DNA of 64,000 nt. It comes from Heptranchias perlo (Eukaryota). Position 1 is the stretch's first letter, and each line of letters starts with the position of its first letter. The stretch spans positions 35,278,001 through 35,342,000 of the forward strand of contig NC_090349.1 of the NCBI RefSeq assembly GCF_035084215.1, given 5' to 3'. The notes beneath the pieces were generated by a model, which was not told the origin of the DNA, ran no database searches, and was given only the letters and a program-made list of their open reading frames with translations. Shown in pieces: positions 6,940 to 60,225 of this stretch. The translations under genes and the position numbers were made by a program.

Positions 6940-8953
6940 TCATAGAATCATAGTAAGGTTACAGCATGGAAGGAGGCCATTTGGCCCATCGAGTCCGCGC
7001 CGGCTCCATGCAAGATCAATCCAGCTGGTCCCACTCCCCCGCCCTATCTCCGTAGCCCTGCACATTTTTTACTTTCAAGTACTTATCCAGTTCCCTTTTG
7101 AAGGCCATGATTGAATCTGCCTCCACCACCCCCTCAGGCAGTGCATTCCAGATCCTAACCACTCGCTGCGTAAAAAAAACTTTGGTTCTTTTGCCAATCA
7201 CCTTAAATCTATGCCATCTGGTTCTTGACCCTTCCGCCAATGGGAACAGTTTCTATCCTGTCCAGATCCTTCATGATTTTGAATACCTCTATCAAATCTC
7301 GCAACCTTCTCTGATCCAAGGAGAACAACCCCAGCTTCTCCAGTCTATCCACGTCATTAAAGTCCCTCATCCCTGGAATCGTTCCAGTAAATCTCTTCTG
7401 CACCCTCTCTAAGGCCTTCACATTTTTCCTAAAGTGTGATGCCCAGAACTGGACACAATATTCCAGTTGTGGCCGAACCAGTGTTTTATAAAGGTTCATC
7501 ATGACTTCCTTACTTTTGTACTCTATGCCTCTATTTATAAAGCCCAGGATCCTGTATACTTTTTTAACCGCTTTCTCAACCTGCCCTGCCACCTTCAAGG
7601 ATTTGTGCACATATACCCCTTTTAGAGTTTATATTGCCCTCTATTTATATTGCCTCTCCTCATTCTTCCTACCGAAATGTATCACTTTGCATTTTTCTGC
7701 GTTAAATTTCATCTGTCCCATGCCACCAGCCTATCTATATCCTCTTGAAGTCTATCACTATCCTCCTCACTGTTCGCTATCCTTCCAAGTTTTACGTCAT
7801 CTGCAAATTTTGAAACTGTGCTCTATACTCTCAAGTCCAAGTCATTAATATATATCGAGCAAAGCAGCGGTCCCAGCACCGACCCCTGGGGAACACCACT
7901 GTATGCCTCCCTCCAGTCTGCAAAACAACCGTTCACCACTACTCTCTGTTTCCTGTCACTTAGCCAATTCTGTATCCATGTTGCTACTGCCCCCTTTTTT
8001 CTGCGGGCCACAATTTTGATGACAAGTCTACCATGCGGTACTTTATCAAACGCCTTTTGAAAGTCCACATACACCACATCAACTGCATTGCCCTCATCTA
8101 CCCTCTGTTACCTCATCAAAAAACTCTATCAAGTTAGTTAAACACGATTTGCCTTTAACAAATCCGTGCTGGCTTTCCCTAATCAATCCAAACGCGTCCA
8201 AGTGACTTAATTCTGTCCCGGATTATCGGTTCCCCACCACTGAGGTTAAACTGACTGGCCTTTGGTTCCTGGGTTTATCCTTACACCCTTTTTTGATCAA
8301 GGGTGTAACATTTGCAATTCTCCAGTCCTCTGGCACCATGCCTGTGTCTAAGGATGTTTAGAAGATTATGGCCAGTACCTCCACAATTTCCACCCTTACT
8401 TCCCTCAGCAACCTAGGATGCATCCCATCTGGACTGGGTGACTTATCTACTTTAAGTACAGCCAGCCTTTCTAGTACCTCTTCTTTATCAATTTTTAGCC
8501 CATCCAGTATCTCAACTGTATCTTCCTTTACTGAGACTCTAGCAGCATCTTCTTCCTTGGTAAAGACAGATGCAAAGTACTCATTTAGTACCTTGGCTAT
8601 GACCTCTGCCTCCATGAGTAGGTCTCCTTTATGGTCCCACCCCTCCTCTTACTACACGTTTACTGTTTACATGCCTGTAGAAGACTTTTGGATTCCCTTT
8701 TATGTTGGCCGCCAGTCTATTCTCATACTCTCTCTTTGCTCCTCTTATTTCCTATTTCACTTCCCCTCTGAACTTTCTATATTCTGCCTGGTTCTCACTT
8801 GTGTTATCAACCTGACATCTGTCATACGCCTCTTTTTTCCACTTCATCTTACTCTCTATCTCTTTTGTCATCCAGGGAGCTCTGGCTTTACTTGCACTCC
8901 CTTTCTCCCTCACGGGAATGTACATAGATTGTACCTGAACCATCTCTTTAAAG
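6940..8953 (-). mobile_element. CR1-clade LINE, 5'-truncated, degenerate RT
   Basis: Fragments [27 protein letters not shown] and LYKTLVRPQLEYCVQFW, with a (CTATGATT)-type 3' tail at 6940. Confidence 0.92.
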
Positions 8954-11900
8954 GTCTCCCCACCACTGTACTATCAGGCAACTGCAATGAAAGGAAAACT
9001 GCAGACTTTTCCCGTCTTCGGGCTGGGGATATGATCTGGATGCAGGATGATCAATTTTCTGCAGATGGAACTATAATGGATCTGTGGTCAGGTTGTTTGG
9101 AGGTGGAAGCGGAAGTAAATAATCATTGGGTTGCTTTGGAGATAAAAATGTAAGTTTAATTTTTTTGTGCAAACAGTGGGGACCTATGAGTGTGGATGCC
9201 AATATTAATATATTTCTCAATTTAAGATGACGCCAAGCAAATAGTTACACGAAATTCAAGCAGGACAAAATAAACTCTCCAGAAAGGTGCAGAGAACTGG
9301 GCAATAAAGTACTTTTTAAGGCCAAGACAAGTTTTTAACGGAGAGTTAAATGTCTAGCGACTCTAATCATTACGGGGACCCGAGCTCAAGAGGACTTCAA
9401 TCCACAGATTTGCAGAACTCTAGTTAAAGAACATTTTAACGGATTTTTGACGCAGTCACGGAGGTACTATCTTGCTGCTATTTATTTATTTATGGCAGCA
9501 GGGACCCCAGGGCCCATGAGCACTTCCAAAAGAAATGTATACTGTACAGAGGTACAGGCCAGAAGGCAAACTATTTTTTTTTAAACTGAAAGAAACACAT
9601 TTAAACTGAGTATAGAAAATACATGTAAGCTGAAATTGTTTGCAGGGGATGCCTGAGTTCTGGAGGGCAGAATCAGGAATCAGCCTCGAGGGGAGTGTTA
9701 CAGCGCTACCAATGGAGAAAATACATATTGCCAGCATTATCTGTTACTAAGTTACTGCAAGCGCCCTCTTGATAACCTCGTCACACACAGTTTGGGAACC
9801 TCAGACTTACAGGAAATGCATTTTGATCCAGTGAGCCTTTCAGTATAATTTAAATACTGGTTTCAATATTTCCTAATTATCTATCTATTTGGCTAATTTG
9901 ACTTACCAATATATTCAATTTACAGTAGAAAAAATTAGGCATCTTTTTTCCAAAATAGCATCTAATCATAGAATAATGACCAAATTCTGGAACTAGATTC
10001 TGGAACATCTATGAGGAACAAATTCAGAAATCCAATTACCTAACTAATGCCGAAAGCGAGAGCACTATCAGAGGGAACTCTAGTGTAAACAACTTGGTGT
10101 CATTGCTATTGGAGACATCTGAAGCTCACTTAGGAAGTAATTTCCCTAGATTGTTCCCAATGGCAAAGATAATTGTCTGCCATCAGCCACACTGTGTTAT
10201 CTTGATTGTGGTTGCTGACAAGTGGAACTCTTTAGGAAGGTCCTAGTTAGAATGACAGTTGTACACTGGAGATTGCAGTGATTGTACATGCAATACAGTG
10301 ACAACTGGTGCAGTGGAAGCAGTTCTGTAATATAAAGAGGGCGTACATCTCCAAACCAGGGATAATCAAACATGAACATTTGCCGATGCTTAATGGACAT
10401 TACCAGACAATTCCATGCAACACACATTTTAAGAAATCCCTTTTGATCTTTGTTTGTAATAGAATTCATTCATGAGAACAGGCTGATTGTTTTAATAAAA
10501 CTGGCAATACTTGGCAGGGCAGAGCTTCAAAGAACAAAAACACAGCATTTTCTGAAACATTGATGCCTACTGATATATGTATGTTCCTGTGTCATTAGTG
10601 GCAGTATATATTATTTTTCTGGTAACTAATTAGATCATGTTTAGTTTTTATTTCGTCACCTTATTAAATGTTAATCCTGCCTGTGCAATTGCATTACAAA
10701 GGTTCCTGAGTTAAGCACCAGCCCAGAAAAATTAGTGAATAGACTAATCTCAAGTGGATCAGTCACTCTCAATACTGAGAAACCTATCTACAACCAAGAT
10801 TGGGAGAAAACTCACTGCAATAATTCACAAAGGGGTTTACAGGCTGCCGGGCCTTGAAGTAACACTCAAAGATACCAAGCAAGTGCCTATAATCGATGGG
10901 CCACAGTGGACAGTGTTTTAGGTCCTAACCAATCTGTACTGCCGGAAGGCAGCTGATTCCATCAATATGTCAAAGCCTTATATTGCATTTGGTGAATTCC
11001 AGTTTGCTTAGTATTGATTGTTTCAGTATACAAGCCACTTTATATAACTGGTTCTGTTGATGAGAACAGTCAACACTTATCACACGCCCAAGAAAATTAT
11101 GCTTTTATAGTTAGAAAACCACAAATATTAGATATTTAATCTTGGTTCTACCACAACACTGCAGGACATTTTTCCTTCCAATTTTCTCCTTTAAACATTT
11201 GACTCTTTGCTGGCATACAGTTTCACCAGCTCCCTCCAAGTGACCATTCTTCACGAGTAAGTCTAGACAGTGAATATATTAGAGTATTTTGCCATGGAAG
11301 GGTGAGCCAAATTTAATCATAGCCAACCCTTGACTGAAGTTTTCTAACACAGGAGTCCTGAGGCCAATTGTAGCACTTCTACCACAGTCCTGGCTAAGAT
11401 TAGCTAACTCAGCACAGTTTGGGGATCAAACCCACAGACTGTGTCTTTAATTCTTTTGGTAACTGTGTTCAGCAGTGTAAATTGGTAATGAAAATTAGGC
11501 ACTTTCCTTAAAGGGAGAAGAGGAAGATGCAACCTAAGCCACTTTTGCACAGTGCCTGCTAATTTGTTTAAATGCAGCATTGACAAAAGTCCTAAGAACT
11601 GTTTGTCAGAAGATGGTGCATGTTCCAGTGAAACCATGAAAAAGGAAAGAGGGAGTCTCACTTTAAAAACTAAATGGATTGTCATTCATAGAAAACAAAT
11701 TAAGCACACTCCTCATATGCAACTTGTATTGGTTTACTGTAAAAAAAATTATACTGCTCTGCATTACATTCTGTTGTCTTTAGGGTATGGTATAAGGAGT
11801 TAGAGTCTGAAACTGGGTGTTAGGCACAGCTTAGTTGCTTGCCAATAGAGGCTTTCTTTTTAAGACCAATGAGCGATGAAAAGCCTGCGGAAGCCCAAGC

Positions 11901-13825: not shown

Positions 13826-15817
13826 CTAGAACAGAAACAAAGAAACACAGTAAATACCCATGAATGTCATGCCAATTTTCTCCCTCTCACCTCTCCTAAA
13901 GATACTATCTCATGCTGGAATCCAGTTCCACCAGTTTAATTGCCCTCCGGTACCTTGCCCATGTGGCCATTCTTCATGTGAGAGCCAACACAGTGAACCT
14001 TGTCAAGGTATTTTATTGTTGAGGGGACAGGGAAGGATGCTAGAGATGAGGGCAGTCCTATCCTCACTCATCTATCTGTGCACATATTCAGCATAAAAGG
14101 GTTGCAATCTTGAGCAAGAACCCTGGCTGATTTTTTTTCTTCCTAGTAAAGGATGCAGAGGCCAACTGTAGCACCCTTACTCTCACCACAGCTGAGATTA
14201 GCTAACTCAGCATAGACTGGGAAATGAAGCTGGAACCTTCTGTTGTATCTGCCTCAGCAACATGCTGAAGCCACGTGGGGACTGAGATTCTGTTTTGTAG
14301 CACAATGTACATGTTTCTTGTATCAATTCCTTTAAAAGTGTGCGTGTATAAGACTGCCATATGTATACGGCACTATCTTTTACAGCTTCATGCTGTCTAT
14401 ACAGATGAGTGTGTGCGTGTGCAGATATTTCTATTTGGAAATTTAAAACAAATAGTTACAATACAAATAGAAAATCAGTAAAATCCTAAACGACTATATT
14501 ACAGACAATCTGTAAACTGCTAACATTCCTGTGTTTCAAGAAGCAACTTATTTATCATAAATAGTATGATAAGTACCTTGGTAATATCAAACATTTTGAA
14601 TAGCTCTTTCTAAAACAATATTTATATAGCACCTTTCACGACCTCAGGACGTCCCAAAGCGCTTTACAGTCAATGAAGTACTTTTTTTTTGAAATGCAGC
14701 AATGTGATAATGACCAGATAATCTTTTTTTTTAAGACTTCTAGACAGAGACTGTCTGCAAGCACTCCAACATAGGGGCATCACATTCAAACCTGATCCTG
14801 TCCTTACTCTATATCAGGAATGCCCACTCTATTGGAGGAAGAGGGTGGATTAGTATACCAAAACTAGATTGAATTGCTTTTTGGTCAGGGAGAATCACGA
14901 ATTAACACATCCAACATAATGATCTCAATTTTAATGGGAGTAAGGGCGGTGGGTGAGGGGTGAGGTGGGTACAGTGCACACGGGCCCTGAAGTGGAACCC
15001 GGTCAGATCCCCTACCTTGCCGGCGGGAGTGGGAATTTGGCAGCAGGAGGCCGCAGCCGAGGACTGAGGTTAAGTGGTAAAGGGGGGACTCCAGACGCAA
15101 TCAGAGGGAGCCTGGGACAATGGAGGCCCAAGGCTTCCTTGTGCGGCCTGGAGGAGCATTCCTGCTCCTCCTGGTCTACAAGAAAACCTGATTAAATGTA
15201 ATTATTCATCTGCCTGGACCTCTTCTGGCCCACGATCCACCTCCTGGCAGGTCTGGCCTGACGGGAAAGCGGGGACTGCTCCCCAGCTCAGGCCTCCAAC
15301 TAATATTGCAGTCAGATTCAGATGACACCATTGGGACCCGATCTGCATATTTAAAGAAGTACCTCACTTCCTACCTGCAGGTGTCCCACTCACCTGCTCA
15401 AAACAGCAACATATATAAGACACAACATTCAGGACCCCCAAACACTGAAATTGGCTAAAGGGTGCACTCTGCTTCCTGGGCTACTCCATTCCATGCTGCT
15501 GCATCTGTGATCTTCTTTGCTGCCCACACCTCCCTCAATTGGCCTAGACTGAACCTGGAACCTTCCTGGTCTGCATGCCTCAGTACCATTACGGCATTGC
15601 ATTTTCCCACAGAATTATTGGGGTGCTCTTTTTAAGTTCATTTTTCCTAATGAACCAGTCACCTGCAGTACTACAATCCCCCGTACTGTACAAAAAGCTC
15701 AGTTCTCCCCATCTAAATCTACAGCACTGAAGATGAATGTCTTCCATGAAGAAGCTGTAAACTATTGAAGTCTAGTTTATTGATAAGAGTTAACTTTTCT
15801 CTAATGAGCCTGGTTAC

Positions 15818-22419: not shown

Positions 22420-22862
22420 TGACTTTCATTTACATAATGTCTTTCACATCCTTAGAACATCCCAAAGTGCTTTGCAGAGCATGAAAGGTGCTACATAAGT
22501 GCAAGTTCAACACAAGCTAATGAATTAATTTTGAAGTGTAATCACTATTGTCTTGTAGGCAAACATAGTAGCCATTTTTCAGAGCAAGGTCCCACAAAGA
22601 GTAATGGGATAATCTGTTTCTGATGGTATCGGTTGAGGTATAAATATTGGCCAGGGCAACTCCCCTGCTTTTCTTCGAATAGTGCCCTGGGATCTTTTAC
22701 ATCCACCTGGCAGAGCAGACAGGTCTCGGTTTAACATCTCATCTGAAAGAAGATAACTTAAGTGTCAGACAAGATTATGCCCGCAAGTCTGTATTGCAGC
22801 TTGAACCCACGACTTTCTGAGATGAGGGGGTACTTAGCTACCACTGAGCCAAGTTTGACAGT
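22420..22862 (-). mobile_element. Deu-domain SINE inserted into an LF-SINE-like copy
   Basis: Reverse-complement similarity to 5822-6045 and 54050-54465. LF-SINE-like sequence lies on both sides (~22130-22400 and ~22863-22980). Confidence 0.65.
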
Positions 22863-23295
22863 GAAACCAATTGTAGTGACACTACTGCCACCACAGCTGA
22901 GATCAGCTAATTCAGCATAGATGAGAGATCTTCTGGTCTGTATGTTTTAGTGTTTCAACAAGGGAGTCAATCAGGGAAGCTGATAAGAAAATAAAACTTC
23001 AATAATTTCTGTTACAAATATACAGGGTCTAGACAACAAATAACAATCATCAGTTATTTTAATTATGGTGTACAGCTCCTGAAATATCTATATGCCGGTG
23101 CACAAATGCAAGGAGAAACTGATTTTGCACATATACACTGTTTTCTCCTCACATTTGCACATGCATGAACACTATGGCAGGCAGAGGGGAAGAAATTAGA
23201 CCAAAGGACTCCAGTTTGCCAGTAATGTGTAGCATCTAACAATCACGTGTGTAATTTTCACAGACTTGTTTTCTCGGTGCACTTTGTCAGCTTAC

Positions 23296-23454: not shown

Positions 23455-24639
23455 GGTGACAGCTAGTCACAACTAGATTAAAAAAAAACAAATTATTTAC
23501 ATACATATAAAAAGATTAGACTATGCTGGCTGCATCTGTACATACTGCCCAAAACTGAATTTGTATTGAATGGGAGGATTTGTTTTTTTTCTTGCCCATT
23601 TGCTAAATTGTTTTTTAAACCCAGAATTCCCAGCTCTACCTAAGCAGATGACCTGTTCCCAAGACTACAGCACTCGGAGCTGAGGCAGAATGGGCCCTAT
23701 TTGCTTCATCCTCTGATTTTTCCTTCCTGTGGAGGAGGGTCTATTCTGGGCTCAGATTCTCTTCCCAGTGGCACAGCTGAGACTGGAAATTTGCTGGACG
23801 TCGAAAATGGTAACCGTGAACCTGCTTCCCACCTCTCCCTGTGGCACAATCTGTTCAAGCCCCAATGAACTGCACTAATAATCTGCCCATGAAATAAAAT
23901 TCAATTCTCTTTCTCCCACCACCCCCATTCCATGTCCCAAACATGCTGATTCATGATGAGGTATTACATAGAATGTACAGCCATTCGGCCCAATAGGTCC
24001 ATGCCAGTGTTTATGCTTCACACGAGTCTCCTCCCTCCCTACTTCATCTAACCCTATCAGCATATGGTATGGATCCACAGGTGCCAGCAGCTACCCAGTT
24101 CCTCACCCAAGTGGCCAGACCCCATGTGTCAGTAAGTTATTTGACCATGTTAGAGGGATCACAGCTGTTCCTGCTACCATCTCAATAACATGTCCATGCA
24201 CCTGCACTTAACAGCAAGGGTCAGTGGGCACCAATCAAATGCAGGTTCCTGGTTTGATTTTTCTCCTCCAACATCTGAGGTTACTGAAGCCAATTGTAGC
24301 ATTCCTGTTGCTGCCCAATCAGAGATCAGCTAATTCAGCATGGATTAGGGATTAAACATGGGAGATTCCTGATTTGTATGGATCAGTATTATTACTCACT
24401 AAACCACCAGGGCAGCTCAGACTTCAATTTCAGTCCTATACTGTGTGCCTCACATTCCTTTCTTTTCAAATAATTTTTCAATCGTCCTGAACAAAAAGGA
24501 AAGAATTATTTCAAGAAATATTCTTCTTCTAAAACCCTCATTACAGGAGATGTCGATCCATTGTCCTTGCCAAATGGTCAATGGTTAATGACTAGTTCTC
24601 AATACTCACTGCAGCAACAAAGGTGTTAATATTGGTTCG

Positions 24640-28000: not shown

Positions 28001-29226
28001 TCTACCCCCGATTGTAGTCCAGTAATTCCAGCTGGGAAGTGTGCAGTGTCCTTCATGGTAAAGTGGCCTGCAAATATTCAATGTCTAGAATAGCAACATG
28101 GGAGAGGTAACAGAGGTGAAATCTAGGACCGTCCTCATATTTCTTTCTAAAATAAATTCCTCAATTTACCATCAAATTTCAATTGTAGGATCAAAGGTCA
28201 GTTCTCCATGCGGCAGGTTGGATATTCACCTGATAGCAGATGAATATGAATGACAGTCCTGGCTTGGATTTGACCAACTCTCTTCCTTTATAGTTACTGG
28301 ATTGCACTATGCTCCACCATTTATTTACAGTGGGTTCTCAAAGCTTCATAAAAGCTCATAAACAGGCTGAGTGATATTGCCCCTCCCCCACTCCCTAAGG
28401 TTTACCACATGGAAAATTTACTTCCAGAGCTTCAGCACAACCTGATAGACTTTCCTCAGAGGGCAGGGACTATCAGCTGGGGAAAAAAAACAACAACCTG
28501 CAGAACTCAAGCAGAATCAAAGCACAAATCCAATCATCGTATAATTTAGCATCAGTGAAATTAAAACTTAACCTCAGGCTCTAGGACACCTGATGTAGAA
28601 TCAGTATGGGTGGAGGTAAGAAATAACAAGGAGCTGAAAACACTGGTGGGAGTAGTTTATAGGCTCCCTAGTAGTTATTTCTTGAATGATACTCTGTCCA
28701 ACAGTATAAGAGCAACTTGTAACAAAGGTAATGCAGTTATCGTGGGGGACTTTAACCTTCATATTGACTGAGCAAATCAAATTGGCAAAAGTAGTTTGGA
28801 GGACGAGTTCATGGAATGCATTCGAAACAGTTTCCTAGAACAATACATCATGGAACCAAGCAGGGAACAGGCTATTTTAGATCTTGTTTTGTGCAAGAGG
28901 CAGGGTTAATTAAGAATCTCATAGTAAGGGATCCTCTGGGGAAGAGTGATCATAATATGATAGAATTTCACATTGAGTTCGAGAGTGATGTACTTAAGTC
29001 CGAAACTAGAGTCTTAAACTTAAACAAAATCAATTACATAGGTATGAGGGGCGAATTGGCTACGGTTGATTGTGAAATTAGATTAAAAGATATGATGGTA
29101 GATAAGCAATGGCAAACATTTAAAGAAACATTTCATAATTCTCAACGAACATACATTCCATCGAGAAATAAAAACTCCACGGGAAAGTGATCCATCCATG
29201 GCTAACTAAAGAAGGATAGTATTAGG

Positions 29227-32200
29227 GTACGGTACGGTGGCATATTGGTTATGTTACTGGACTAGTAATCCGGAATCATGAGTTCAAATCCCGCCATGGC
29301 AGCTGGGGAATTTAAATTCAATTAATTAAATAAAATCTGGAATTAAAATACTCGTATCAGTAATGGTGGCCATGAATGTACCGGATTGTCGTAAAAACCC
29401 ATCTGGTTCACTAATGCCCTTTAGGGAAGGAAACCTGCCTTCCTTACCCGGTCTGGCCTATATGTGACTCCAGACCCACAGCAATGTCGTTGATTCTTAA
29501 TTGCCCTCTGAAATGGCCTAGCAGGCCACTCAGTTATAAAATCTCGCTAAAAAAAGTTACAATAAGAATAAAACCGAACGGACCACCCGGCATCAGAACA
29601 CTAGGCACCGGACACGACAAAGGCAAACCAAGCCCAGTCGACCCTGCAAAGTCCTCCTCACCAACATCTGGGGACTTGTGCCAAAATTGGGAGAGCTGTC
29701 CCACAGACTAGTCAAGCAACAGCCTGACATAGCCATACTCACAGAATCATACCTTTCAGCCAACATCCCAGACTCTTCCATCACCATCCCTGGGTATGTC
29801 CTGTCCCACCAGCAGGACAGACCTACCAGAGGTGGCAGTGCAGTGATATACAGTCAGGAGGGAGTGGCCCTGGGAGTCCTCAACACTGACTCCAGACCCC
29901 ATGAAATCTCATGGCATCAGGTCAAACATGGGCAAGGAAACCTCCTGCTGATTACCACCTACCGCCCTCCCTCAGCTGATGAATCAGTCTTCCTCCATGT
30001 TGAGCACCACTTGGAGGAAGCACTGAGGATAGCAAGGGCACAGAATGTACTCTGGGTGGGAGACTTCAATGCCCATCACCAAGAGTGGCTCCGTAGCACC
30101 ACGACTGACCGAGCTGGCCGAGTCCTGAAGGACATAGCTGCCAGACTGGGCCTGTGGCAGGTGGTGAGCGAACCAACACGAGGGAAAAACTTACTTGACC
30201 TCGTCCTCACCAATCTACCTGTCACAAATGCATCTGTCCATGACAGTATTGGTAGGAGTGACCACTGCACAGTCCTCGTGGAGACGAAGTCCCATCTTCC
30301 CACTGAAGACACCATCCAACGTGTTGTGTGGCACTTCCACCATGCTAAATGGGACAGATTCAGAACAGATCTAGCAGCTCAAAACTGGGCATCCATGAGG
30401 CGCTGTGGGCCATCAGCAGCAGCAGAATTGTATTCCAGCACAATCTGTAACCTCATGGCCCGGCATATTCCTCACTCTACCATTACCAACAAGCCAGGGG
30501 ATCAACCTTGGTTCAATGAGGAGTGTAGAAGGGTATGCCAGGCGTACCTAAAAATGAGGTGCCAACCTGGTGAAGCTACAACACAGGACTACATACATGC
30601 TAAACAGTGGAAGCAGCATGCTATAGATAGAGCTAAGCAATTCCACAACCAACGGATCAGATCAAAGCTCTGCAGTCCTGCCACATCCAGTCGTGAATGG
30701 TGGTGGACAATTAAACAACTAATGGGAGGAGGAGGCTCTGCAAACATCCCCATCCTCAATGATGGCAGAGTCCAGCACGTGAGTGCAAAAGACAAGGCTG
30801 AAGCATTTGCAACCATCTTCAGCCAGAAATGCCGAGTCGATGATCCATCTCGGCCTCCTCCCGATATCCCCACCATCACAGAAGCCAGTCTTCAGCCAAT
30901 TCGATTCACTCCACGTGATATCAAGAAACGGCTGAGTGCACTGGATACAGCAAAGGCCATGGGCCCCGACAACATCCGGGCTGTAGTGCTGAAGACTTGT
31001 GCTCCAGAACTAGATGCACCTCGAGCCAAGCTGTTCCAGTACAGCTACAACACTGGCATCTACCCGACAATGTGGAAAATTGCCCAGGTATGTCCTGTCC
31101 ACAAAAAGCAGGACAAATCCAATCCGGCCAATTACCGCCCCATCAGTCCACTCTCAATCATCAGCAAAGTGATGGAAGGTGTCGTCGACAGTGCTATCAA
31201 GCGGCACTTACTCACCAATAACCTGCTCACCGATGCTCGGTTTGGGTTCCGCCAGGACCACTCGGCTCCAGACCTCCAGACTTGGTCCAAACATGGACAA
31301 AAGAGCTGAATTCCAGAGGTGAGGTGAGAGTGACTGCCCTTGACATCAAGGCAGCATTTGACCGAGTGTGGCACCAAGGAGCCCTAGTAAAATTGAAGTC
31401 AATGGGAATCATGGGGAAAACTCTCCAGTGGCTGGAGTCATATCTAGCTCAAAGGAAGATGGTAGTGGTTGTTGGAGGCCAATCATCTCAGCCCCAGGGC
31501 ATTGCTGCAGGAGTTCCTTAGGGCACTGTCCTAGGCCCAACCATCTTCAGCGGCTTCATCAATGACCTTCCCTCCATCATAAGGTCAGAAATGGGGATGT
31601 TCGCTGATGATTGCACAGTGTTCAGTTCCATTCGCAAATAATGAAGCAGTCCGAGCCCGCATGCAGCAAGACCTGGACAACATCCAGGATTGGGCTGATA
31701 AGTGGCAAGTAACATTCGCGCCAGACAAGTGCCAGGCAATGACCATCTCCAACAAGAGAGAGTCTAACCACCTCCCCTTGACGTTCAACGGCATTACCAT
31801 CGACAAATCCCCCACCATCAACATCCTGGGGGTCACCATTGACCAGAAACTTAACTGGACCAGCCACATAAATACTGTGGCTACAAGAGCAGGTCAGAGG
31901 CTGGGTGTTCTGCAGCGAGTGACTCACCTCCTGACTCCCCAAAGCCTTTCCACCATCTACAAGGCACAAGTCAGGAGTGTGGTGGAATACTCTTCATTTG
32001 CCTGGATGAGTGCAGCTCCAACAACACTCAAGAAGCTCGACACCATTCAGGACAAAGCAGCCCGCTTGATCGGCACCCCATCCACCACCCTTCACCACCA
32101 GCGCACAGTGGCTGCAGTGTGTACCATCCAAAGGATGCACTGCAGCAACTCGCTAAGGCACCTCCCAAACCCGCGACCTCTACCACCTAGAAAGACAAGA

Positions 32201-32523
32201 GCAGCAGGTACATGGGAACAACACCGCCTGCACGTTCTGGAAGGGAGTTCCAGGATTTTGACCCAGCGACGATAAAAGAACGGCGATATGTTTCCAAGTC
32301 ACACACCATCCCGACTTGGAAACATATCGCCGTTCTTTTATCGTCGCTGGGTCAAAATCCTGGAACTCCCTTCCTAACAGCACTGTGGGAGAACCTTCAC
32401 CACACGGACTGCAGCGATTCAAGAAGGCGGCTCACCACCACCTTCTCAAGGGCAATTAGGGATGGGCAATAAATGCTGGCCTCGCCAGCGATGCCCACAT
32501 CCCATGAACGAATAAAAAAAAAA
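29227..32523 (+). mobile_element. SINE-headed single-ORF LINE (HE1 head + HER1-like APE-EN/RT ORF + shared 3' tail + polyA)
   Basis: TSD ATTAGG (29221-29226, 32524-32529). A box TGGCATATTGG 29238-29248 and B box GTTCAAATCC 29282-29291. EN motifs LTNIWGL, LTESYL, TYRPP, VGDFN, LDLVL, SDH; RT motifs NYRPIS, DIKAAFDRV, FADD; polyA end. Confidence 0.92.
29648..32240 (+). pseudogene. disrupted ORF2 (APE endonuclease + reverse transcriptase) of the SINE-headed LINE
   Basis: Open from KVLLTNIWGL to 31309. Frameshift near 31275, TAG at 31519-31521, further indels downstream. Confidence 0.88.
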
Positions 32524-35446
32524 ATTAGGTTAAAAGAAGAGGCTTATAATAAGAATAGTAAGTCTGAGGATTGGGAGAGTTTCAAAAACCAACAAACCAT
32601 GACTAAAAAATTGATAAAGAGGGAGAAAATAGAATGAGAGTAAACTAGCAAGAAATATAAAAATACATTGTAAGAGCTTCTACAAGTATATAAAAAGGAA
32701 GAGAATAGTGGAAGTAAACAAATGTGGGTCCCTTCGAGGCTGAGACAGTATAAATTATAATGGGGGAATAAGGAAATGGCAGAGACGTTGAACAGATATT
32801 TTGTGTCTGTCTTCACAGTAGAAGGTACAAAGAAAATACGAGAAATAGTGGGGAACCAAGGGTCTAATGAGAGTGAAGAACTTAAAGAAATAAATATTAG
32901 TAAAGAAATTAAAGGGACCAAAAGCCAACAAATCCCCAACACCTGACGGCCTACATCCTAGGGTTCTAAAAGAGGAGGCTGTAGAGATAGTGGAAGCATT
33001 GGTTGTGAACTTCCAAAATTTCCTACATTCTAGAACAGTCCCAGTGGACTGGAAGTTAGCAAATGTAACACCGCTATTCAAGAAAGGAGGGAGAGAGAAA
33101 ACAGGGAACTACAGGCCAGTTAGCCTGACATCAGTAGTAAGAAAAATGCTAGAACCTATTATTAAGGACGTGGTAACAGGCCACTTAGAAAATCATAATA
33201 TGATTAGACAGAGTCAACATGGTTTTATGAAAGGGAAATAATGTGTGACAAACCTATTAAGAGTTTTTTGAGGATGTAACTAGCAGGGTAGAAAAAGGGG
33301 AACCAGTGGATGTAGTATATTTGGATTTTCAAAAGGCATTCGATAAGGTGCCACACAAAAGTTTACTACACAAGATAAGGGCGCATGGGGTTGGGGGTAA
33401 TATATTAGCATGGATAAAGGATTGGTTAACAGTCAGAAAACAGAGAGTAGGAATAAACGGGTCATTTTCAGGTTGGCAGGCTGTAACTGGTGGGGTGCCG
33501 CAAGGATCGGTGCTGGGGCCTCAGCTATTTTACAATCTACATTAATGACTTACACGAAGGGACCGAGTGTAATGAATCCAAGTTTGCTGATGATACAAAG
33601 CTAGGTGGGAAAGTAAGCTGTGAGGAGGACACAAAGAGTCTGCAAAGGGATATAGATAGGTTAAGTGAGTGGGCAAGAAGGTGGCAGATGGAGTACAATG
33701 TGGGGAAATGTGAGGTTATTCACTTTGGTAGGAAGAATAGAAAAACAGAATATTTTTTAAATGGTAGGAAACTATTAAATGTTGGTGTTCAGAGGGAATT
33801 GGATGTCCTTGTTCATGAAATACAGAAAGTTAACATGCAGGTACAGCAAGCAATTAGGAAGGCAAATGGTATGTTGGCCTTTATTGCAAGGGGGATGGAG
33901 TACAAGAGTAAGGTAGTCTTGCTGCAATTGTACGGGGCTTTGGTGAGACCACACCTGGAGTACAGTTTTGGTCTCCTTACCTAAGGAAAGATATACTTGC
34001 CTTAAGGTGGTGCAACAAAGGTTCACTAGATTGATTTCTGGGATGAAAGGGTTGTCTTATGAGGAGAGATTGAGTAGAATGGGCCTATACTCTCTGGGGT
34101 TTAGAAGAATGAGAGGTGATCTCATTGAAACATATAAGACTCTGAGAGGGCTTGACAGGGTATATGCTGAGAGGCTGTTTCCCCTGGCTGGAGAGTCTAG
34201 AACTAGGGAGCAGTCTCAGGATAAGGGGTCAGCCATTTAGGACTGAGATGAGGAGAAATTTCTTCACTCAGAGGGTTGTGAATCTTTGGAATTCTCTACC
34301 CCAGAGGGCTGTGGATGCTCAGTCGTCGAGTATATTCAAGACTGAGATTGATAGATTTTTGGACTTTAAGGGAATCAAGGGATATGGGGATCGGGCAGGA
34401 AAGTGGAGTTGAGGTCGAAGGTCAGCCATGATCTTATTGAATGGCGGAGCAGGCTCGAGGGGCTATATGGCCTATTCCTACTCCTTATGTTCTTACGTAC
34501 ATTGCCCTGGAGGAAGTAGCAAATTCTTATTTGTAAGTAATACCATGGTTCCACACAACAGGAAGAGCTGGAAACAGCTCTTAGGCCTCCACAAAAGCCA
34601 AACTATAGCCAGCTGCTGAAAGGTATGAAAAATGGTTTGAGATGGCTGGCTCTCCAATTTTCCTTCCCTCTACATGGGGAGCAGATGATCGCCACAAAGC
34701 CTTTGGTAGCATGGCTAAGATGAGGAAATCATGGTGTACAAAATAGGTTTATATCTGCCATTCCCTCCCATTTTGTGTACAGCATGTTGAAATTCAAATA
34801 TGCTGTGAAACTGCATTTGTTTCATTCAGCAAAAGGCTTCCTTCAGTGTTCTCCACATTCCCTTGTTCTCTTCGAGACATGTGCAAATCATGGCTAACAG
34901 GGTCTATGAATTGCCCAGTCCCTGGGTCTGGCTGTTTTTCAGTGAAACTAGCCAGAAGGCGTCTGGTACACTCCCAGTGGGGAAGTGCCTGGCTCCCACT
35001 TACTATTGTCAACAACATACAGCAGCTTAACCATTGTAAATACATCCCGAGGTGTTTCAAAAAGTGGGGGTCAGACCCAAGCAGGAGTAGAAAGAGTTAG
35101 CAGAGGTGGCTGAAGGTATGGTCAGAAATCAGCGACTCAGCAGTGTGAGGGATGTGTAAATCCACATCTACAATATTATACTGATCATTGGTGTGGTAAC
35201 ATACTGTGGCACTGTGCTTCTATCATCCTATTCCACCATATTTCTAATTCTTTGTGCTTGACACTTACACCTGCTCCATCCAATCCCATTTAAAGCTGCA
35301 TCACTAAGATTTTGCAGAATTGCATCTGCCCTGACATATAGGGCATAGCTAAAGATTGTTACCGCCATTCTGGCAGCAGCCATAACAAAAATATTCACAT
35401 TCTTCGAGTGGAAGTTAATTTTAATTAATTGATGTGCATCTGCGTA

Positions 35447-39199: not shown

Positions 39200-40327
39200 T
39201 ACATAAGACATAAGATTACATAAGAAGCAGGAGCAGGACTAGGCCACAAGGCCCCTCGAGCCTGCTCCACCATTCAAGATCATGGCTGATCTTCTACCCT
39301 CAACTCCACTTTCCCGCCCTATCCCCGTATCCCTTGATTCCATTAGTGTCCAAAAATCTATTGATTTGAGTCTTGAATATACTCAATGACTGAGCACCCA
39401 CAGTCCTCTGGGGTAGAGAATTCCAAAGATTCACAAGCCTCCGAGTGAAGAAATTTTGCCTCATCTCGGTCCTAACTGGCCGACCCCTTATCTTGAGACT
39501 ATGACCCAATCCTCTAGACTCTCCAGCCGGGGGAAACGGACTCTCAGCGTCTACCCTGTCAAGCCCTCAAAGAATTTTATACATTTCAATAAAATCACCT
39601 CTCATTCTTCTAAACTCCAGAGAATATAGGCCCATTCTAATCAATCTCTCCTCATAGGACAACTCTCTCATCCCAGGAATCAATTAGTGAATCTTTGTTG
39701 CACCCCCTCTAAGGCAAGTATATCCTTCCTTAGGTAAGGAAACCAAAACTGTACACAGTACTCCAGATGTGGTCTCACTAGAGCCCTTTTTAATTGCAGC
39801 AACACCTCCTCACTCTTATACTCCAAACCCATTGCAATAAAGGCTAACATACCATTTGCCTTCCTAATTGCTTGTTGTACCTCATGTTAACTTTGTGATT
39901 TGTGTACAAGGACACCCAAATCCCTCTGACTACCAACATTTCTTAGTCCCTCACCTTTTAAAAAATATTCTGTTTTTCTATTCTTCCTACCAAAGTGAAT
40001 AAACTCACATTTCCCCACATTATACTCCATCTGCCACCTTGTCGCCCACTCACTTAACCTGTCTACAACCTGTCACTTTCCCACCTATCTTTGTATCGTC
40101 AGCAAACTTGGATACATTACACTCAGTCCCCTCATCTAAGTCATTGATATATATTGTAAACAGCTGAGGCCCCAGCACTGATCCTTGCAGGACCCCACTA
40201 GTTACAACCTGCCTACCCGAAAATGATCCGTTTATTCCTACTCTCTGTGTTCCATCCGTTAACCAATCCTCAATCCATGCTGATATATTACCCCCAATCC
40301 CATGAGTCCTAATCTTGTGTAACACCT
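39200..40327 (-). mobile_element. CR1-clade LINE 3' fragment
   Basis: [32 protein letters not shown] and NFFTRRLVNLWNSLP; ACATAAG repeats at the 3' end. Confidence 0.9.
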
Positions 40328-41505: not shown

Positions 41506-41599
41506 ATTGTATAAAACAACAGCAAACCATACCTGAACAAAGTGTGACAGACAGGCAGGCAGGCAGACAGACAGACAGAGATAATGTTGTATCAATTGA

Positions 41600-42954
41600 T
41601 TTTTTTATTTGTTCAAGGGATGTGGCCGTCGCTGGCAAGGCCAGCATTTATTGCCCATCCCTATTTGCCCTTGAGAAGGTGGTGGTGAGCTGCCTTCTTG
41701 AACTGCTGCAGTGAAGGTTCTCCCATAGTGCTGTTAGGTAGGGAGTTCCAGGATTTTGACCCAGCGACGATGAAGGAACGGCGATATATTTCCAAGTCAG
41801 GATGGTGTGTGACTTGGAGGGGAACGTGCAGGTGGAGTTGTTCCCATGTGCCAGCTGCCCTTGTCCTTCCAGGTGGTAGAGGTCGCGGGTTTGGGAGGTG
41901 CTGTCGAAGAAGCCTTGGCAAGTTGCTGCAGTGCACACTGCAGCCATGGTGTGCCGGTGGTGAAGGGAGTGAATGTTTAGGGTGGTGGATGGGGTGCCAA
42001 TCAAGCGGGCTGCTTTGTCCTGGATGGTGTCGAGCTTCTTGAGTGTTGTTGGAGCTGCACTCATCCAGGCAAGTGGAAAGTATTCTATCACACTCCTGAC
42101 CTGTGCCTTGTGGATGGTGGTAAGGCTTTGGGGAGTCAGGAGGTGAGTCACTCGCCGCAGAATACCCAGCCTCTGACCTGCTCTTGTAGCCACAGTATTT
42201 ATGCGGCTGGTCCAGTTAAGTTTCTGGTCAATGGTGACCCCCAGGATGTTGATGGTGGGGGATTAGGCAACGGTAATGCCATTGAATGTCAAAGGGAGGT
42301 GGTTAGACTCTCTCTAGTTGGAGGTGGACATTGCCTGGCACTTGTCTGTTGCGAATGTTACTTGCCACTTATAAGCCCAAGCCTGGATGTTGTCCAGGTC
42401 TTGCTGCATGCGGGTACGGACTGCTTCATTATCTGAGGGGTTGCGAATGGAACTGAACACTGTGCAATCATCAGTGAACATTCCTATTTCTGACCTTATG
42501 ATGGAGGGAAGGTCATTGATGAAGCCGCTGAAGATGGTTGGGCCTAGGACACCGCCTTGAGGAACTCTTGCAGCAATGTCCTGGGGCTGAGATGATTGGC
42601 CTCCAACAACCACTACCATCTTCCTTTGTGCTAGGTATGACTGCAGCCACTGGAGAGTTTTCCCCCTGATTCCCATTGACTTCAATTTTACTAGGGCTCC
42701 TTGGTGCCACTCTCGGTCAAATGCTGCTTTGATGTCAAGGGCAGTCACTCTCACCTCACCTCTGGAATTCAGCTCTTTTGTCCATGTTTGGACCAAGTCT
42801 GGAGGTCTGGAGCCGAGTGGTCCTGGCGGAACCCAAACTGAGCATCGGTGAGCAGGTTATTGGTGAGTAAGAGCCGCTTGATAGCACTGTCGATGACACC
42901 TTCCATCACTTTGCTGATGATTGAGAGTGGACTGATGGGGCAGTAATTGGCCGG
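41600..42954 (-). mobile_element. 5'-truncated second copy of the HER1-like LINE family
   Basis: High similarity to 31125-32523 (VQTWTKELNSRGEVRVTALDIKAAFD, same 3' tail and polyA). Confidence 0.92.
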
Positions 42955-45720: not shown

Positions 45721-46185
45721 GAGCAGTCATTGAAACATATAAATTCTGAGGGGGCTTGACAGGGTAGATGCTGAGAGGTTGTTTCCCCTGGCTGGGGTGC
45801 CTAGAACTAGGAGGCATAGTCAGGGGATAAGGGTCAGCCTTTTAAGAGTGAGATGGGGAGGAATTTCTTCATGCAAAGGGTTGTGAATCTTTGGAATTCT
45901 CTACCCCAAAGAGCTGTAGATACTGAGTCATTGAGTATATTCAAATGTAAGGAATCTTACAACACCAGGTTATAGTCCAACAGTTTTATTTGAAAATCAC
46001 AAGCTTTCGGAGGCTTTCTTCTTCGTCAAGTGAGTGTCGAGATTCATTGAAAATTACTGCATATATAGTCATAGAACAATGCCTGGTGATTACAGTCATG
46101 ATGTGGAGATGCCGGTGATGGACTGGGGTTGACAATTGTAAACAATTTTACAACACCAAGTTATAGTCCAGCAATTTTATTTTAA

Positions 46186-46226
46186 ATTCACAAGCTTTCG
46201 GAGACTTCCTCCTTCCTCAGGTAAAT
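46186..46226 (-). ncRNA. minimal type I hammerhead ribozyme (inverted copy)
   Basis: Exact reverse complement of 46899-46939. Confidence 0.78.
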
Positions 46227-46898
46227 GTTCAGGAGCTCCTTGAAGCCTACGCATTTATACATATAGAACAATACATGGTGTTTACAGACTGCCCCTGCAA
46301 CTGCCCGTTGCCAAGGCAATCACCGTGTTCAGACAGAGAGGTGTCACCTGCAGAACCCCCGAATACACATTCAACAAAAAAACAAACAGGAAAACGCTGC
46401 GACAACGGATGAACGGACACCGCGCAACAATCGCCAAACAGGAGGGTTCCCTCCCAGTCGGGGAACACTTCAGCAGTCATGGACATTCATCCACCGACCT
46501 TCGGGTAAGCGTACTCCAAGGCGGCCTTCGAGACACACGACAACGCAAAATCGTCGAGCAGAAATTGATAGCCAAGTTCCGCACCCTTGAGGACGGCCTC
46601 AACCGGGATCTTGGGTTCATGTCACGCTACACGTTACCCCACCAGCGAACAAATGTTATCTGTTTTTAATATAATGGGTCATTTGCTGGCTTTCTCTGCC
46701 TTCCGGATGTTTCTGCCTCTCTCTGTTTTTTTTTCCTGTTTGTTTTTTTGTTGAATGTGTATTCGGGGGTTCTGCAGGTGACACCTCTCTGTCTGAACAC
46801 GGTGATTGCCTTGGCAACGGGCAGTTGCAGGGGCAGTCTGTAAACACCATGTATTGTTCTATATGTATAAATGCGTAGGCTTCAAGGAGCTCCTGAAC

Positions 46899-46939
46899 AT
46901 TTACCTGAGGAAGGAGGAAGTCTCCGAAAGCTTGTGAAT
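46899..46939 (+). ncRNA. minimal type I hammerhead ribozyme (PLE-type)
   Basis: ATTTAC-CTGAGGA-A-GGAGG/aag/TCTCC-GAAA-GCTT-GTGAAT. Confidence 0.78.
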
Positions 46940-47973
46940 TTAAAATAAAATTGCTGGACTATAACTTGGTGTTGTAAAATTGTTTACAATGGTGATTACA
47001 GATAATCTTTCCAACTGCCCGTTATCAAGGCCATCAAATTAATTGAATAGTGTTCAGACAGAGAAACCTTAGATACCCCAGACAACTGAATATACAAACG
47101 GCCAGAACCAAAGAAAGAGAGGGAGAGAGAGAGAGAAACATCCAAAAGGAAGAGAAAGAGAGAGAATGACCAGTTGTATTAAAAACAGATAACTTTTTCC
47201 CCCCCTGGTGGGGTTACATGTAGCGCGACATGAACCCAAGATCCCGGTTGAGGCCGTCCTCATGGGTGCGGAACTTGGCTATCAATTTCTGCTCGACGAT
47301 TTTGCGTTGTCTTGTGTCTCGAAGGCCGCCTTGGAGAACGCTTACCCGAAGATCGGTGGCTGAATGTCCTTGACTGCTGAAGTGTTCCCCGACTGGGAGG
47401 GAACCCTCCTGTCTGGCGACTGTTGCGTGGTGTCCGTCCAGTGGCGAGACCATGCAGACACAAGACAACGGATGAACGGACACCGCGCAACAATCGCCAG
47501 ACAGGAGGGTTCCCTCCCAGTCGGGGAACACTTCAGCAGTCAAGGACATTCAGCCACCGATCTTCGGGTAAGCGTTCTCCAAGGCGGCCTTCGAGACACA
47601 AGACAACGCAAAATCGTCGAGCAGAAATTGATAGCCAAGTTCCGCACCCATGAGGACGGCCTCAACCTGGATCTTGGGTTCATGTCGCGCTACACGTAAC
47701 CCCACCAGGTGGAAAAAAAGTTATCTGTTTTTAATACAACTGGTCATTCTCTCTCTTTCTCTTCCTTTCGGATGTTTCTCTCTCTCTCTCCCTCTCTTTC
47801 TTTGGTTCTGGCCGTTTGTATATTCAGTTGTCTGGGGTATCTAAGGTTTCTCTGTCTGAACACTATTCAATTAATTTGATGGCCTTGATAACGGGCAGTT
47901 GGAAAGATTATCTGTAATCACCAGGCATTGTTCTATGACTATATATGCGGTAATTTTCAATGAATCTCGACAC

Positions 47974-48010
47974 TCACCTGACGAAGGAGAAAGCCTCCGA
48001 AAGCTTGTGA
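47974..48010 (+). ncRNA. minimal type I hammerhead ribozyme (PLE-type)
   Basis: TCAC-CTGACGA-A-GGAG/aaagc/CTCC-GAAA-GCTT-GTGA: conserved core, stem I TCAC/GTGA, stem II, and palindromic AAGCTT in place of stem III. Confidence 0.8.
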
Positions 48011-48399
48011 TTTTCAAATAAAACTGTTGGACTATAACCTGGTGGTGTAAGATTCCTTACATTTGTACACCCCAGTCCATCACCAGCATCTCCACATCAG
48101 GAGTATATTCAAGGCTGAGATTTTTGGACTCTAGGGGAATCAATGGATATGGGGATCCGGCAGGAAAGTGGAGCTGAGGTCAAAGATCAGCCCTGATCTT
48201 ATTGAATGACGGAGCAGGCACGAGAGGCTGTACGGCCTACTCCTATTTCTTATGTTCTTAGACGGTTCGAGGATGGGTATTTTGAGAAGTGGGCTGACAG
48301 ACGATTGACAATATCAGCTAGCATAGAGCCCAGGAAGGTGAGGAGAGTTGGAGGGAGGAGATCGCTCCCAGAAATTGGTTCCCCGAACGCTAATGTTTC

Positions 48400-58771: not shown

Positions 58772-59191
58772 CTGCCAAAGAGAGAAAACTTGGGCTTTAA
58801 AATAGGCATGCACAAAAAATAGTGACTTGAAGGCAGTGTATGCCAATGTGCCACCAGTACAATCAACAAATACGGTGAAATTTGGAATTTAAGTTCAGAT
58901 GTGCAAAACAGACCCTTCTGGAGCATTCAATCAGTCCTGTGAGAAGCACTTAGTGATGAAAGATCGTGGGTATTTTGAAGGTTGAATACACCAAAACCAA
59001 ACACCAATCACACACAACTGAGTAGCAAAGTCCCGAATTAACCAATTATCAATTGTCAGACAACCTGTCTTGAAAATTGCCATCTAAATAATTTTGAGGC
59101 CATAGGGAGAACAATTTGGAGAAGGAATGTGCATTGGCTTGCGGTGATCCACAGGGATGCTTAGATGCAACTTTCTGTCCTAGATTGTCAA

Positions 59192-59320
59192 GATGTGGAG
59201 ATGCCGGTGATGGAATGGGGTTGACAAATGTAAAGAATCTTACAACACCAGGTTATAGTCCAACAATTTTATTTGAAAATCACAAGCTTTCGGAGATTAC
59301 CTCCTTCGTCAGGTGAGTGA
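59192..59320 (-). mobile_element. 129-bp Penelope-like 3' end insertion in RPL6 intron 1
   Basis: TSD CTAGATTGTCAA (59180-59191, 59321-59332); homologous to 47970-48098. Confidence 0.9.
59280..59316 (-). ncRNA. minimal hammerhead ribozyme, sense to RPL6 pre-mRNA
   Basis: TCAC-CTGACGA-A-GGAGG/taa/TCTCC-GAAA-GCTT-GTGA. Confidence 0.78.
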
Positions 59321-60206
59321 CTAGATTGTCAATACAGAGGGTTGTCACTGCTTTGTTCATACAGCTTAGTATTTTATCAGTTAAATCCCACACATCATCT
59401 TCTCTATGCAGAAAGCACAAAGGAACCATTTCTCAGCCTAAAACATTTTATTGTGTATACTTCACCAAATAAAATTTAAAGTTGAGCATCTACAGAATAT
59501 GGGGAGACATATTAGCAGGTACTACTCATCCAAGCAGTAAGGGAGAGATAAAATCAGAAAATGCTGCAAACATCCAGCAGGTCAGGTAATAAGATCTTTG
59601 TTCAGCAAATTGGCCACATAAGAATTCCAGTGTCAATTAGCATTGATTATTCAGCATGGAAAATGGAATGAAATAATTGTACATATTGGAAAGGGGAGCA
59701 GTTTACTATAGTTGATTAAAAATTGTAAGACTTGATACAGGGCACTCACATTCAGGATAGCTTATACCCTTCGCATTGGGAGCATTAAAGACATTAATAT
59801 TTTAATGTTAAGGGCCAGTCCCCACGCGCAACAGTAGCACTGGCTAACCCCATGCAAGAAGACTCCCAGCCCCTGGCTGCTCCTACTTCCAGTCGCAGGC
59901 CTCTCCCTCACACACCGGTAACTCCTTTTCTACTCCACCCACCGAGATTTCTAGCATAACACATGGCTCAGAAACCGCCATTACACCGCTTCTCGCACCG
60001 TACCCTGCCGCTTCCCCCACTACCTCCAAAAAGAGCCCCACAAACATCACCATAAATCCTCCTTAACCACAAATATAGGCTAATCCGAACAGCTGACACT
60101 GCGCACCGCGCTTTCCGTGTGGTGCTAGATGTTAACAAAGCTTCCCAGCCCCGATGGAAACCGATGCTCTGTCCCATAGTTCGTAACAAAACTCCGCCAT
60201 TCTTAC

Positions 60207-60225
60207 CTTAAGTCAAAAGGAAGGG
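60207..60225 (-). other. RPL6: RPL6 non-coding exon 1 with 5' TOP/TCT initiator
   Basis: CCCTTCCTTTTGACTTAAG|gtaaga: a polypyrimidine start and consensus donor, followed by YY1-like AATGGCGG in intron 1. Confidence 0.85.

What the first reader, a model, noticed from the sequence alone, without database searches (positions are those of the whole stretch)
29227..32523. Candidate Pol III-driven LINE: tRNA/SINE head fused to an EN+RT ORF, no ORF1, moved as one unit
Seen: a single 6-bp TSD (ATTAGG) brackets a tRNA-derived head with A box (29238-29248) and B box (29282-29291), ~300 bp of SINE body, ~110 bp of linker, then an APE endonuclease starting at motif I (KVLLTNIWGL), RT, 3' tail and polyA. 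The interrupted host CR1 rejoins cleanly across the insertion. Established: CR1/L2-group LINEs normally use Pol II 5' UTR promoters and an ORF1, and SINEs normally borrow only the LINE 3' tail. Inference: this family may be an autonomous retroposon that uses a SINE-type internal Pol III promoter, in effect a protein-coding SINE. I cannot tell from the sequence whether this architecture has already been described for shark HER1.
Basis: partly seen in the sequence, partly recalled or inferred. Interest (0 to 1): 0.9.

Follow-up and report, generated by a model that had tools for sequence, protein, structure and literature searches.

The report
tRNA-headed, AUG-less Zenon LINE of sharks
An abundant shark jumping gene encodes its own copying enzyme yet begins with a tRNA-type promoter, avoids the T-runs that stop RNA polymerase III and has no normal start codon, which suggests, without experimental proof, that it is read like a non-coding SINE and translated by an unusual route.

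Summary
82 head starts share a sharp 5' end with no common upstream sequence. Young copies keep an intact 973-codon EN+RT frame. It matches the elasmobranch Zenon LINE of PMC13343379: ORF1-less with polyA is normal there, and the published shark and ray consensuses start with the same head, though the paper never mentions tRNA. This scan noted the family before in other genomes (e1-8041298, e1-8042209). New here: (1) the sense strand lacks TTTT, and synonymous T is avoided where it would make TTT (5/41 vs 190/480, p=0.0002; 106 relatives pooled OR 0.97), as Pol III read-through predicts; (2) the first in-frame Met is residue 250, after the endonuclease; (3) a conserved anticodon-like hairpin could pair with an in-frame GCT just after the stop, resembling dicistrovirus IGR-IRES initiation. 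Against: 9 of 13 parsed ancient copies have T4+ behind the head, Rfam finds no IRES, and no transcript data exist. Best reading: Pol III-driven autonomous LINE with non-AUG initiation (0.6); IRES-like mechanism about 0.25.

The parts
29221..29226 (+). 5' copy of 6-bp target-site duplication ATTAGG (host CR1 sequence)
   Evidence: empty site exact in 79 CR1 copies
29227..29301 (+). tRNA-derived head; family 5' end lies 8 nt before the A box; this copy has a few extra duplicated bases at the junction and the short head variant
29238..29248 (+). Pol III A box
29280..29291 (+). Pol III B box
29302..29361 (+). AT-rich variable spacer with AATAAA; no T4 in recent subfamily consensuses, T4+ common in ancient copies
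29362..29549 (+). conserved ~190-nt leader ('body'); 92% identical between ancient and young consensus against 76% for the segments on both sides; candidate translation-initiation RNA
29402..29474 (+). 5-bp helix 29402-29406 with 29470-29474 carrying one compensatory pair (T-A in 71 of 80 recent, A-T in 13 of 21 ancient copies)
29508..29533 (+). hairpin shaped like an anticodon stem-loop (7-nt loop CU-AGC-AA in the family; last base mutated in this copy)
29546..29548 (+). in-frame GCT, third codon after the in-frame stop; GCTA is the only 4-mer in the 24 nt after the hairpin that can pair with the loop
29540..32459 (+). single AUG-less ORF: Arg-rich N-terminus, APE endonuclease from 29648, RT (FADD at 29600+2000, i.e. 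31600), C-terminal domain; frameshifted here, intact (972-974 codons) in 9 of 20 young copies fetched
32239..32301 (-). locus-specific inverted duplication of 32307-32369
32460..32523 (+). 3' UTR, AATAAA and short polyA tail
32524..32529 (+). 3' copy of the TSD
28560..34490 (+). host canonical CR1 copy, interrupted by the element (28560-29226 and 32524-34490)

Best explanation
An autonomous Zenon-type (CR1-group) LINE of sharks and rays that took up a tRNA-derived head before sharks and rays split and uses it as an internal Pol III promoter. Steps: (1) shown: full-length copies start 8 nt before the A box and carry one EN+RT frame under purifying selection; (2) inferred: TFIIIC/Pol III transcribe the 3.3-kb unit, which is possible because the sense strand has been cleared of T-runs, and read on through the encoded A-tail into the flank; (3) shown: no in-frame AUG precedes the endonuclease; inferred: the uncapped RNA is translated from a non-AUG codon just after the in-frame stop, placed by the conserved ~190-nt leader, most simply by an anticodon-loop/GCU pseudoknot as in dicistrovirus IGR IRESs; (4) established for LINEs: the protein copies its RNA by target-primed reverse transcription from the A-tail; internal deletions give head+body+tail SINE-like forms that keep the promoter.
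For: Sharp 5' end: majority base falls from 0.72-0.99 to background at position -9 in 82 head starts, and 0 of them share head-adjacent upstream sequence. Head present in all 7 elasmobranch Zenon consensuses of 5 species incl. a ray; by eye the boxes vary only at degenerate positions (one ray B box lacks a base) while the leader and A-B spacing drift. No T4 in both recent consensuses, in 2 kb of the ancient consensus, or in 23 of 30 full-length copies. T3+ runs 7 vs 21.5 expected while TT is normal and the host CR1 is normal. Synonymous T chosen 5 of 41 times where it makes a run of 3+, 190 of 480 elsewhere, OR 0.21, p 0.0002; 106 relatives pooled OR 0.97, lowest single OR 0.34. All relatives with long frames hold T4 (40 of 40; 64 of 64) and none of 160 loci matches the head/body model or an A...B box pattern. 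Purifying selection: 18 synonymous vs 7 replacement codons young/old, 20 vs 16 young/ancient. First Met at 250, catalytic GDFN at 175; Met upstream of EN in 19 of 22 and 29 of 34 relatives. GCT-to-EN distance is a multiple of 3 in 79 of 94 recent and 14 of 21 ancient copies despite subfamily length changes.
Against: No transcript, cap or ChIP data; the runs laid were contigs and cannot show starts. T4 absence alone is weak against dinucleotide- or codon-aware nulls (p 0.08-0.13). 9 of 13 parsed ancient copies have T4-T7 just behind the head; tails show such drift in only 6 of 44, so the ancient master may have had a T4 there. Two headless or head-unknown relatives are also nearly T4-free (L286: 1, L356: 1). 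Pol III retroelements described so far are at most about 1.3 kb (PMC10886601). Leader folds no better than shuffles (z 0.41); Rfam finds no IRES; the loop/GCTA pairing never varies, so there is no covariation for it; SquAca_Zenon-1 is one base out of frame after GCT by my reading; the one compensatory pair has simulated chance 0.04 (helices of 5+ bp) or 0.24 (4+ bp). Subfamilies share ancestry, so they are not independent samples.
Confidence: 0.6

Rival explanations
1. Pol II LINE (internal promoter in the leader or host read-through) with a captured tRNA head that is only a passenger; the AUG-less frame is reached by reinitiation after a uORF or by a -1 frameshift from the overlapping +1 frame.
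For: LINEs are held to be Pol II transcripts (PMC10886601, PMC5786205). AATAAA directly precedes the A-tail. An AUG-started open +1 frame overlaps the ORF start in recent subfamilies and in the five published species by eye. T4 in ancient copies.
Against: The +1 AUG is ACG in the ancient consensus and no slippery site is shared; main-frame AUGs in the leader are each followed by stops; two further AATAAA lie in the first 380 nt; a passenger head would not keep its boxes or explain synonymous T-run avoidance.
Confidence: 0.2
2. The tRNA-like fold acts on the RNA, not as a promoter: it is cut out of host read-through transcripts (RNase P-like), as HDV-like ribozymes free R2/RTE RNAs, giving an uncapped 5' end.
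For: The 5' end sits at about tRNA position -1/+1; anticodon and variable arms stay hairpins across species by eye; would also call for cap-independent translation.
Against: The acceptor-stem 5' strand is the most variable part of the head across species, head folds no better than shuffles; does not explain T-run avoidance.
Confidence: 0.08
3. Split labour: Pol III makes the template RNA that is copied, while the protein comes from a few copies transcribed by Pol II inside host transcripts, so most mobilisation is in trans.
For: Explains head conservation and T-run avoidance without a 3.3-kb uncapped mRNA; short forms dominate an ancient sample (21 of 30).
Against: Still needs non-AUG initiation; the ORF stays under purifying selection together with the head; one frameshift tested had not spread beyond two neighbouring copies.
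Confidence: 0.11
4. One-off template-switch chimera of a SINE and a truncated LINE.
For: None left.
Confidence: 0.01

Closest known systems
Elasmobranch Zenon (CR1-Zenon) LINEs: CarCar, RhiTyp, ScyCan, HypSab, SquAca _Zenon (Stuart et al. 2026, PMC13343379)
   Same: Same 5' 400 nt by eye (head, leader, ORF start), 3.2-3.3 kb, one APE+RT ORF, no ORF1, polyA tail.
   Different: The paper has 0 hits for tRNA, promoter, polymerase, IRES, translation, start codon in the main text and 0 for tRNA in the supplement as held. Supplement cells are cut at 400 characters, so the rest could not be compared.
Lepidopteran Zenon and its SIDE Persaeus (PMC6740152); hagfish and coelacanth Zenon
   Same: ORF1-less, polyA, ~3.3 kb, internally deleted derivatives.
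   Different: Persaeus has no tRNA homology or Pol III promoter; hagfish and coelacanth consensus 5' ends lack the head and hold T-runs.
tRNA-derived SINEs (SINE2), bipartite SINEs such as Bov-tA, and TRIMp3 (Cassandra, Helenus)
   Same: tRNA head with A and B boxes on a retroelement.
   Different: These are short and non-coding; PMC5786205 states SINEs cannot encode a protein.
RTE-1_DAn and relatives (Drosophila ananassae)
   Same: LINEs with a tRNA-like sequence, mentioned in one sentence of PMC5786205 section 7.
   Different: Other clade; position and function of that sequence are not given there, and I could not see the element.
Type 6 (dicistrovirus IGR) IRES
   Same: About 160-190 nt, ends in an anticodon-stem-loop mimic paired to a codon mimic, non-AUG start, GCU the commonest first codon and ACA commonest in type 6f (PMC12221177, PMC10275262).
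   Different: No Rfam match, named loop motifs not recognised, only 3-4 bp of loop pairing, no covariation for it; known only from RNA viruses, and PMC3894237 treats IGR IRESs in non-LTR elements as hypothetical.
HE1 V-SINE / HER1 LINE of sharks and rays
   Same: Shark SINE/LINE pair sharing a tail (table in PMC3747384).
   Different: HER1 is a canonical CR1 (recalled from Ogiwara 1999, not seen); this ORF is only 23-44% identical to the host CR1 in matching segments.

Membership tests
Zenon (CR1-Zenon) LINE | single APE+RT ORF, no ORF1 | tested here: met
Zenon (CR1-Zenon) LINE | polyA tail | tested here: met
Zenon (CR1-Zenon) LINE | sequence match to named elasmobranch Zenon consensuses | tested here: met
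   first 400 nt compared by eye only
Zenon (CR1-Zenon) LINE | RT groups with Zenon in a tree | not tested
   no named reference RTs in session; nearest proteins 36-40% identical, named ones from a moth and amphioxus
SINE2 (tRNA-derived SINE) | tRNA head with A and B boxes at the 5' end | tested here: met
SINE2 (tRNA-derived SINE) | short, non-coding, non-autonomous | tested here: not met
   3.3 kb with intact 973-codon frames under purifying selection
SINE2 (tRNA-derived SINE) | transcribed by Pol III | not testable with these tools
   indirect support only
HER1 / canonical CR1 | close similarity to shark CR1 ORF2 | tested here: not met
   23-44% to the host CR1; HER1 itself not available
Type 6 IGR IRES | match to Rfam IRES models | tested here: not met
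Type 6 IGR IRES | PKI anticodon-codon mimic directly before an AUG-less frame | tested here: inconclusive
   possible and invariant, no covariation
Type 6 IGR IRES | upstream PKII/PKIII pseudoknots | tested here: inconclusive
   candidate crossing helices, one compensatory pair
Type 6 IGR IRES | factor-independent ribosome binding and initiation | not testable with these tools
   needs toeprinting and reporters

The most novel reading that the evidence does not exclude
A vertebrate LINE that has fully switched to Pol III: a 3.3-kb uncapped protein-coding transcript, cleared of terminators at the codon level, whose enzyme is made by a factor-independent, tRNA-mimicking IGR-type IRES that arose in a cellular retroelement, and which spawns its own SINEs by internal deletion.
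Probability: 0.25. Interest if true: 0.92.

Novelty: new variant of a known kind. Interest (0 to 1): 0.74.

Why it matters
The working rule is that LINEs use Pol II and SINEs use Pol III and cannot code. A large, long-lived, recently active family that crosses this line would be a natural Pol III protein-coding unit, would show a second route to SINEs (LINE gains a head, then loses its middle), and would give a direct test of IGR-type IRESs outside viruses. Intact young copies make each step testable. AUG-based ORF calling truncates this protein by about 250 residues, which may be why published top ORF lengths for the family are at most 747 aa (my inference).

Tried and rejected
HER1 identity: rejected on similarity to the published Zenon and distance from the host CR1. 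Longer ORF1-bearing form: none; 11 pairs of upstream flanks shared sequence but 0 next to the head. Long-range pairing of leader and tail (15 nt, 87%): one of 99 inverted pairs, and by eye weaker, not compensated, in ancient copies, so not used. -1 frameshift from the +1 uORF: AUG missing in the ancient consensus. Scanning at a near-cognate codon: none shared at one position. Head or leader outside elasmobranchs: 0 hits in viral and prokaryote contig collections, none in 160 relative loci, ARAGORN 0 of 60 metagenome loci; ARAGORN at lowered stringency gave only noise. A coral metatranscriptome run had cover in 30 of 30 bins at mostly under 95% identity; source organism unknown, not used as evidence. 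Contigs of three other coded organisms cover all 30 bins, two with many loose ends at the head start: consistent, but no contig spans the element. Not in print: paper searches found no description of a Pol III-driven or tRNA-headed shark LINE; Repbase, Dfam and subscription journals were not searchable, and bioRxiv supplements were not seen.

Full report
Observation. The element runs from 29227 to 32523 between two ATTAGG copies. The host CR1 site without the insert occurs exactly 79 times elsewhere in the genome. The window copy is dead: frameshifting deletions near 31277 and 31635, a stop at 31519-31521 and a private inverted duplication near 32239-32301. It is 96.9% identical to the consensus of an older subfamily.

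It is a family. In the 3.25-Gb own genome the head-ORF junction has 2586 candidates, and all 40 scored (self included) match at 95% or more. Of 29 other loci found with the head and body, 26 run on into the ORF, 2 are short head+tail forms and 1 stops after the body. The endonuclease region has 11849 candidates. These are best-hit samples, not copy numbers. In 82 distinct head starts the majority base drops to background 9 nt before the A box and no two share upstream sequence next to the head, so there is no longer ORF1-bearing form among them. Of 20 copies fetched as best matches to the endonuclease, 9 keep a 972-974-codon frame, 4 of them with a matched head; 11 young full-length copies are 97.8-99.4% identical to their consensus. 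An ancient subfamily, about 81-86% identical to the young one per copy, has the same head and junction. Replacement changes are under-represented between subfamily consensuses (7 vs 18 synonymous; 16 vs 20). TSDs are mostly absent or at chance level in the 30 copies with both ends.

What it is. Nearest proteins are 36-40% identical, mostly unnamed on 3.3-4.3-kb contigs; named ones are from a moth and amphioxus. Fragments appear in gene models of three shark species at 77-82%. PMC13343379 (abstract, passages, section 15, supplement rows seen) reports Zenon LINEs in five elasmobranchs, all without ORF1 and with polyA. The first 400 nt of its seven elasmobranch consensuses, one from a ray, match this element by eye and all begin at the tRNA-like head; hagfish and coelacanth Zenons do not. 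The paper does not mention tRNA, promoter, polymerase or translation. So the family is published and the lack of ORF1 is ordinary; the head is unremarked in what I could search. Two earlier notes of this scan reached the same family in other genomes; I saw them after forming my reading and count them as leads, not support.

Evidence on the polymerase. Pol III stops at runs of four or more T on the sense strand (established knowledge). Both recent consensuses (3.3 kb) and 2 kb of the ancient one have none, nor do 23 of 30 full-length copies, while A4 runs are common. Alone this is weak: 0 vs 4.2 expected (p 0.01) by base shuffling, p 0.08-0.13 by Markov or codon shuffling. Runs of three are the stronger sign: 7 vs 21.5 (p 0.0003) or 14.4 (p 0.025), with TT normal and the host CR1 normal. 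At synonymous T/C sites T is chosen 5 of 41 times where it would make a run of three or more, against 190 of 480 elsewhere (OR 0.21, p 0.0002); 106 related LINE frames give OR 0.97 pooled and 0.34 at lowest. These relatives are distant (24-37% identity) and mostly T-richer; all hold T4, but two have only one. Against: 9 of 13 ancient copies that my pattern could parse (of 30) have T4-T7 in the spacer behind the head, more than the 6 of 44 tails that drifted to T4+. That T4 in A-rich context is a leaky terminator is recalled, not checked. PMC10886601 (passages) gives Pol III retroelements as 100-1263 bp and LINEs as Pol II. That Pol III can make functional mRNA in reporters is recalled.

Translation. 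In intact copies the first Met is residue 250, beyond the catalytic GDFN at 175; relatives have an upstream Met in 19 of 22 and 29 of 34 cases. An in-frame stop lies 37 codons before motif I in the young subfamily, so the start must fall in a short Arg-rich stretch like the basic N-termini of relatives. The ~190-nt leader before it is 92% identical between ancient and young consensus, against 76% on either side and 91-95% in the ORF. Its last hairpin has a 7-nt loop CU-AGC-AA on a 4-5-bp stem in all folds. The only 4-mer in the next 24 nt that can pair with the loop is GCTA, whose GCT is in frame, and is kept in all three subfamilies and the five published species while neighbouring bases change. 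From GCT to the endonuclease the distance is a multiple of three in 79 of 94 recent and 14 of 21 ancient copies, with several common lengths. This is the geometry of PKI in type 6 IRESs (PMC12221177, PMC10275262, passages). It was noticed after the fact, the pairing is short and invariant, the leader is no more stable than shuffles, Rfam finds nothing, and one published consensus is out of frame by my reading. One other helix shows a compensatory pair (chance 0.04-0.24). I put non-AUG initiation at about 0.85 and the IRES-like route at about 0.3.

Short forms. 34 exact pattern hits join the body end to the tail with many different breakpoints; in an ancient sample 21 of 30 are short and 5 long; similar joints appear in contigs of other organisms. 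This fits repeated internal deletion of the headed LINE, as Persaeus arose from lepidopteran Zenon (PMC6740152, part 2 read), but here the products keep a Pol III head. The direction is inferred; a SINE that swapped its middle for the ORF is not excluded.

Verdict. A known family with an undescribed architecture and two new lines of sequence evidence. [quoted passage not shown] Other papers seen: PMC7245038, PMC11481361, PMC3894237, PMC3747384, 10.1101/443036 (passages), PMC5499810 (part 2 of 6). Pol III-driven autonomous LINE 0.6; new variant of a known kind; interest 0.74.

Noticed in passing
window 41594-42954 (-): 5'-truncated second copy of the family, inverted relative to the main copy; the two share a frameshifting lesion found nowhere else in the genome (2 exact hits), pointing to local gene conversion or rearrangement between the inverted copies.
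   Followed up: partly
window about 1490-1800 (+) and 765-833: Very old SINE-like short form (head, partial body, tail) and a lone tail of the same family.
   Followed up: partly
window 45900-48100, 59190-60840: Nest of long near-perfect inverted repeats (451 nt at 98%, 263 nt at 100%), like foldback or MITE-type DNA elements.
   Followed up: no
window 11236-11431, 13959-14229, 22861-22934, 24284-24357: Dispersed old repeat family with shared core blocks, possibly a Deu-type SINE (label recalled).
   Followed up: no
window 39298-40321 (-), 7662-7980: Further CR1 copies related to the host element.
   Followed up: no
L096, L092 5' junctions: Short inverted or direct duplications of head sequence at the 5' junction, as from template jumps at the end of reverse transcription.
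   Followed up: no
L356:3501-5549, L201, L340: Other LINE frames with marked T-run depletion (L356: 1 T4 vs 10.2 expected) and no head found; worth a look for further Pol III-like cases.
   Followed up: no
L286-L365: Many animal-type LINEs sit in bacterial and archaeal MAGs, most likely host contamination.
   Followed up: no
window 29255-29271 and 29513-29529: The leader's anticodon-like hairpin resembles the head's own anticodon arm, so the leader may hold a second decayed tRNA copy.
   Followed up: no
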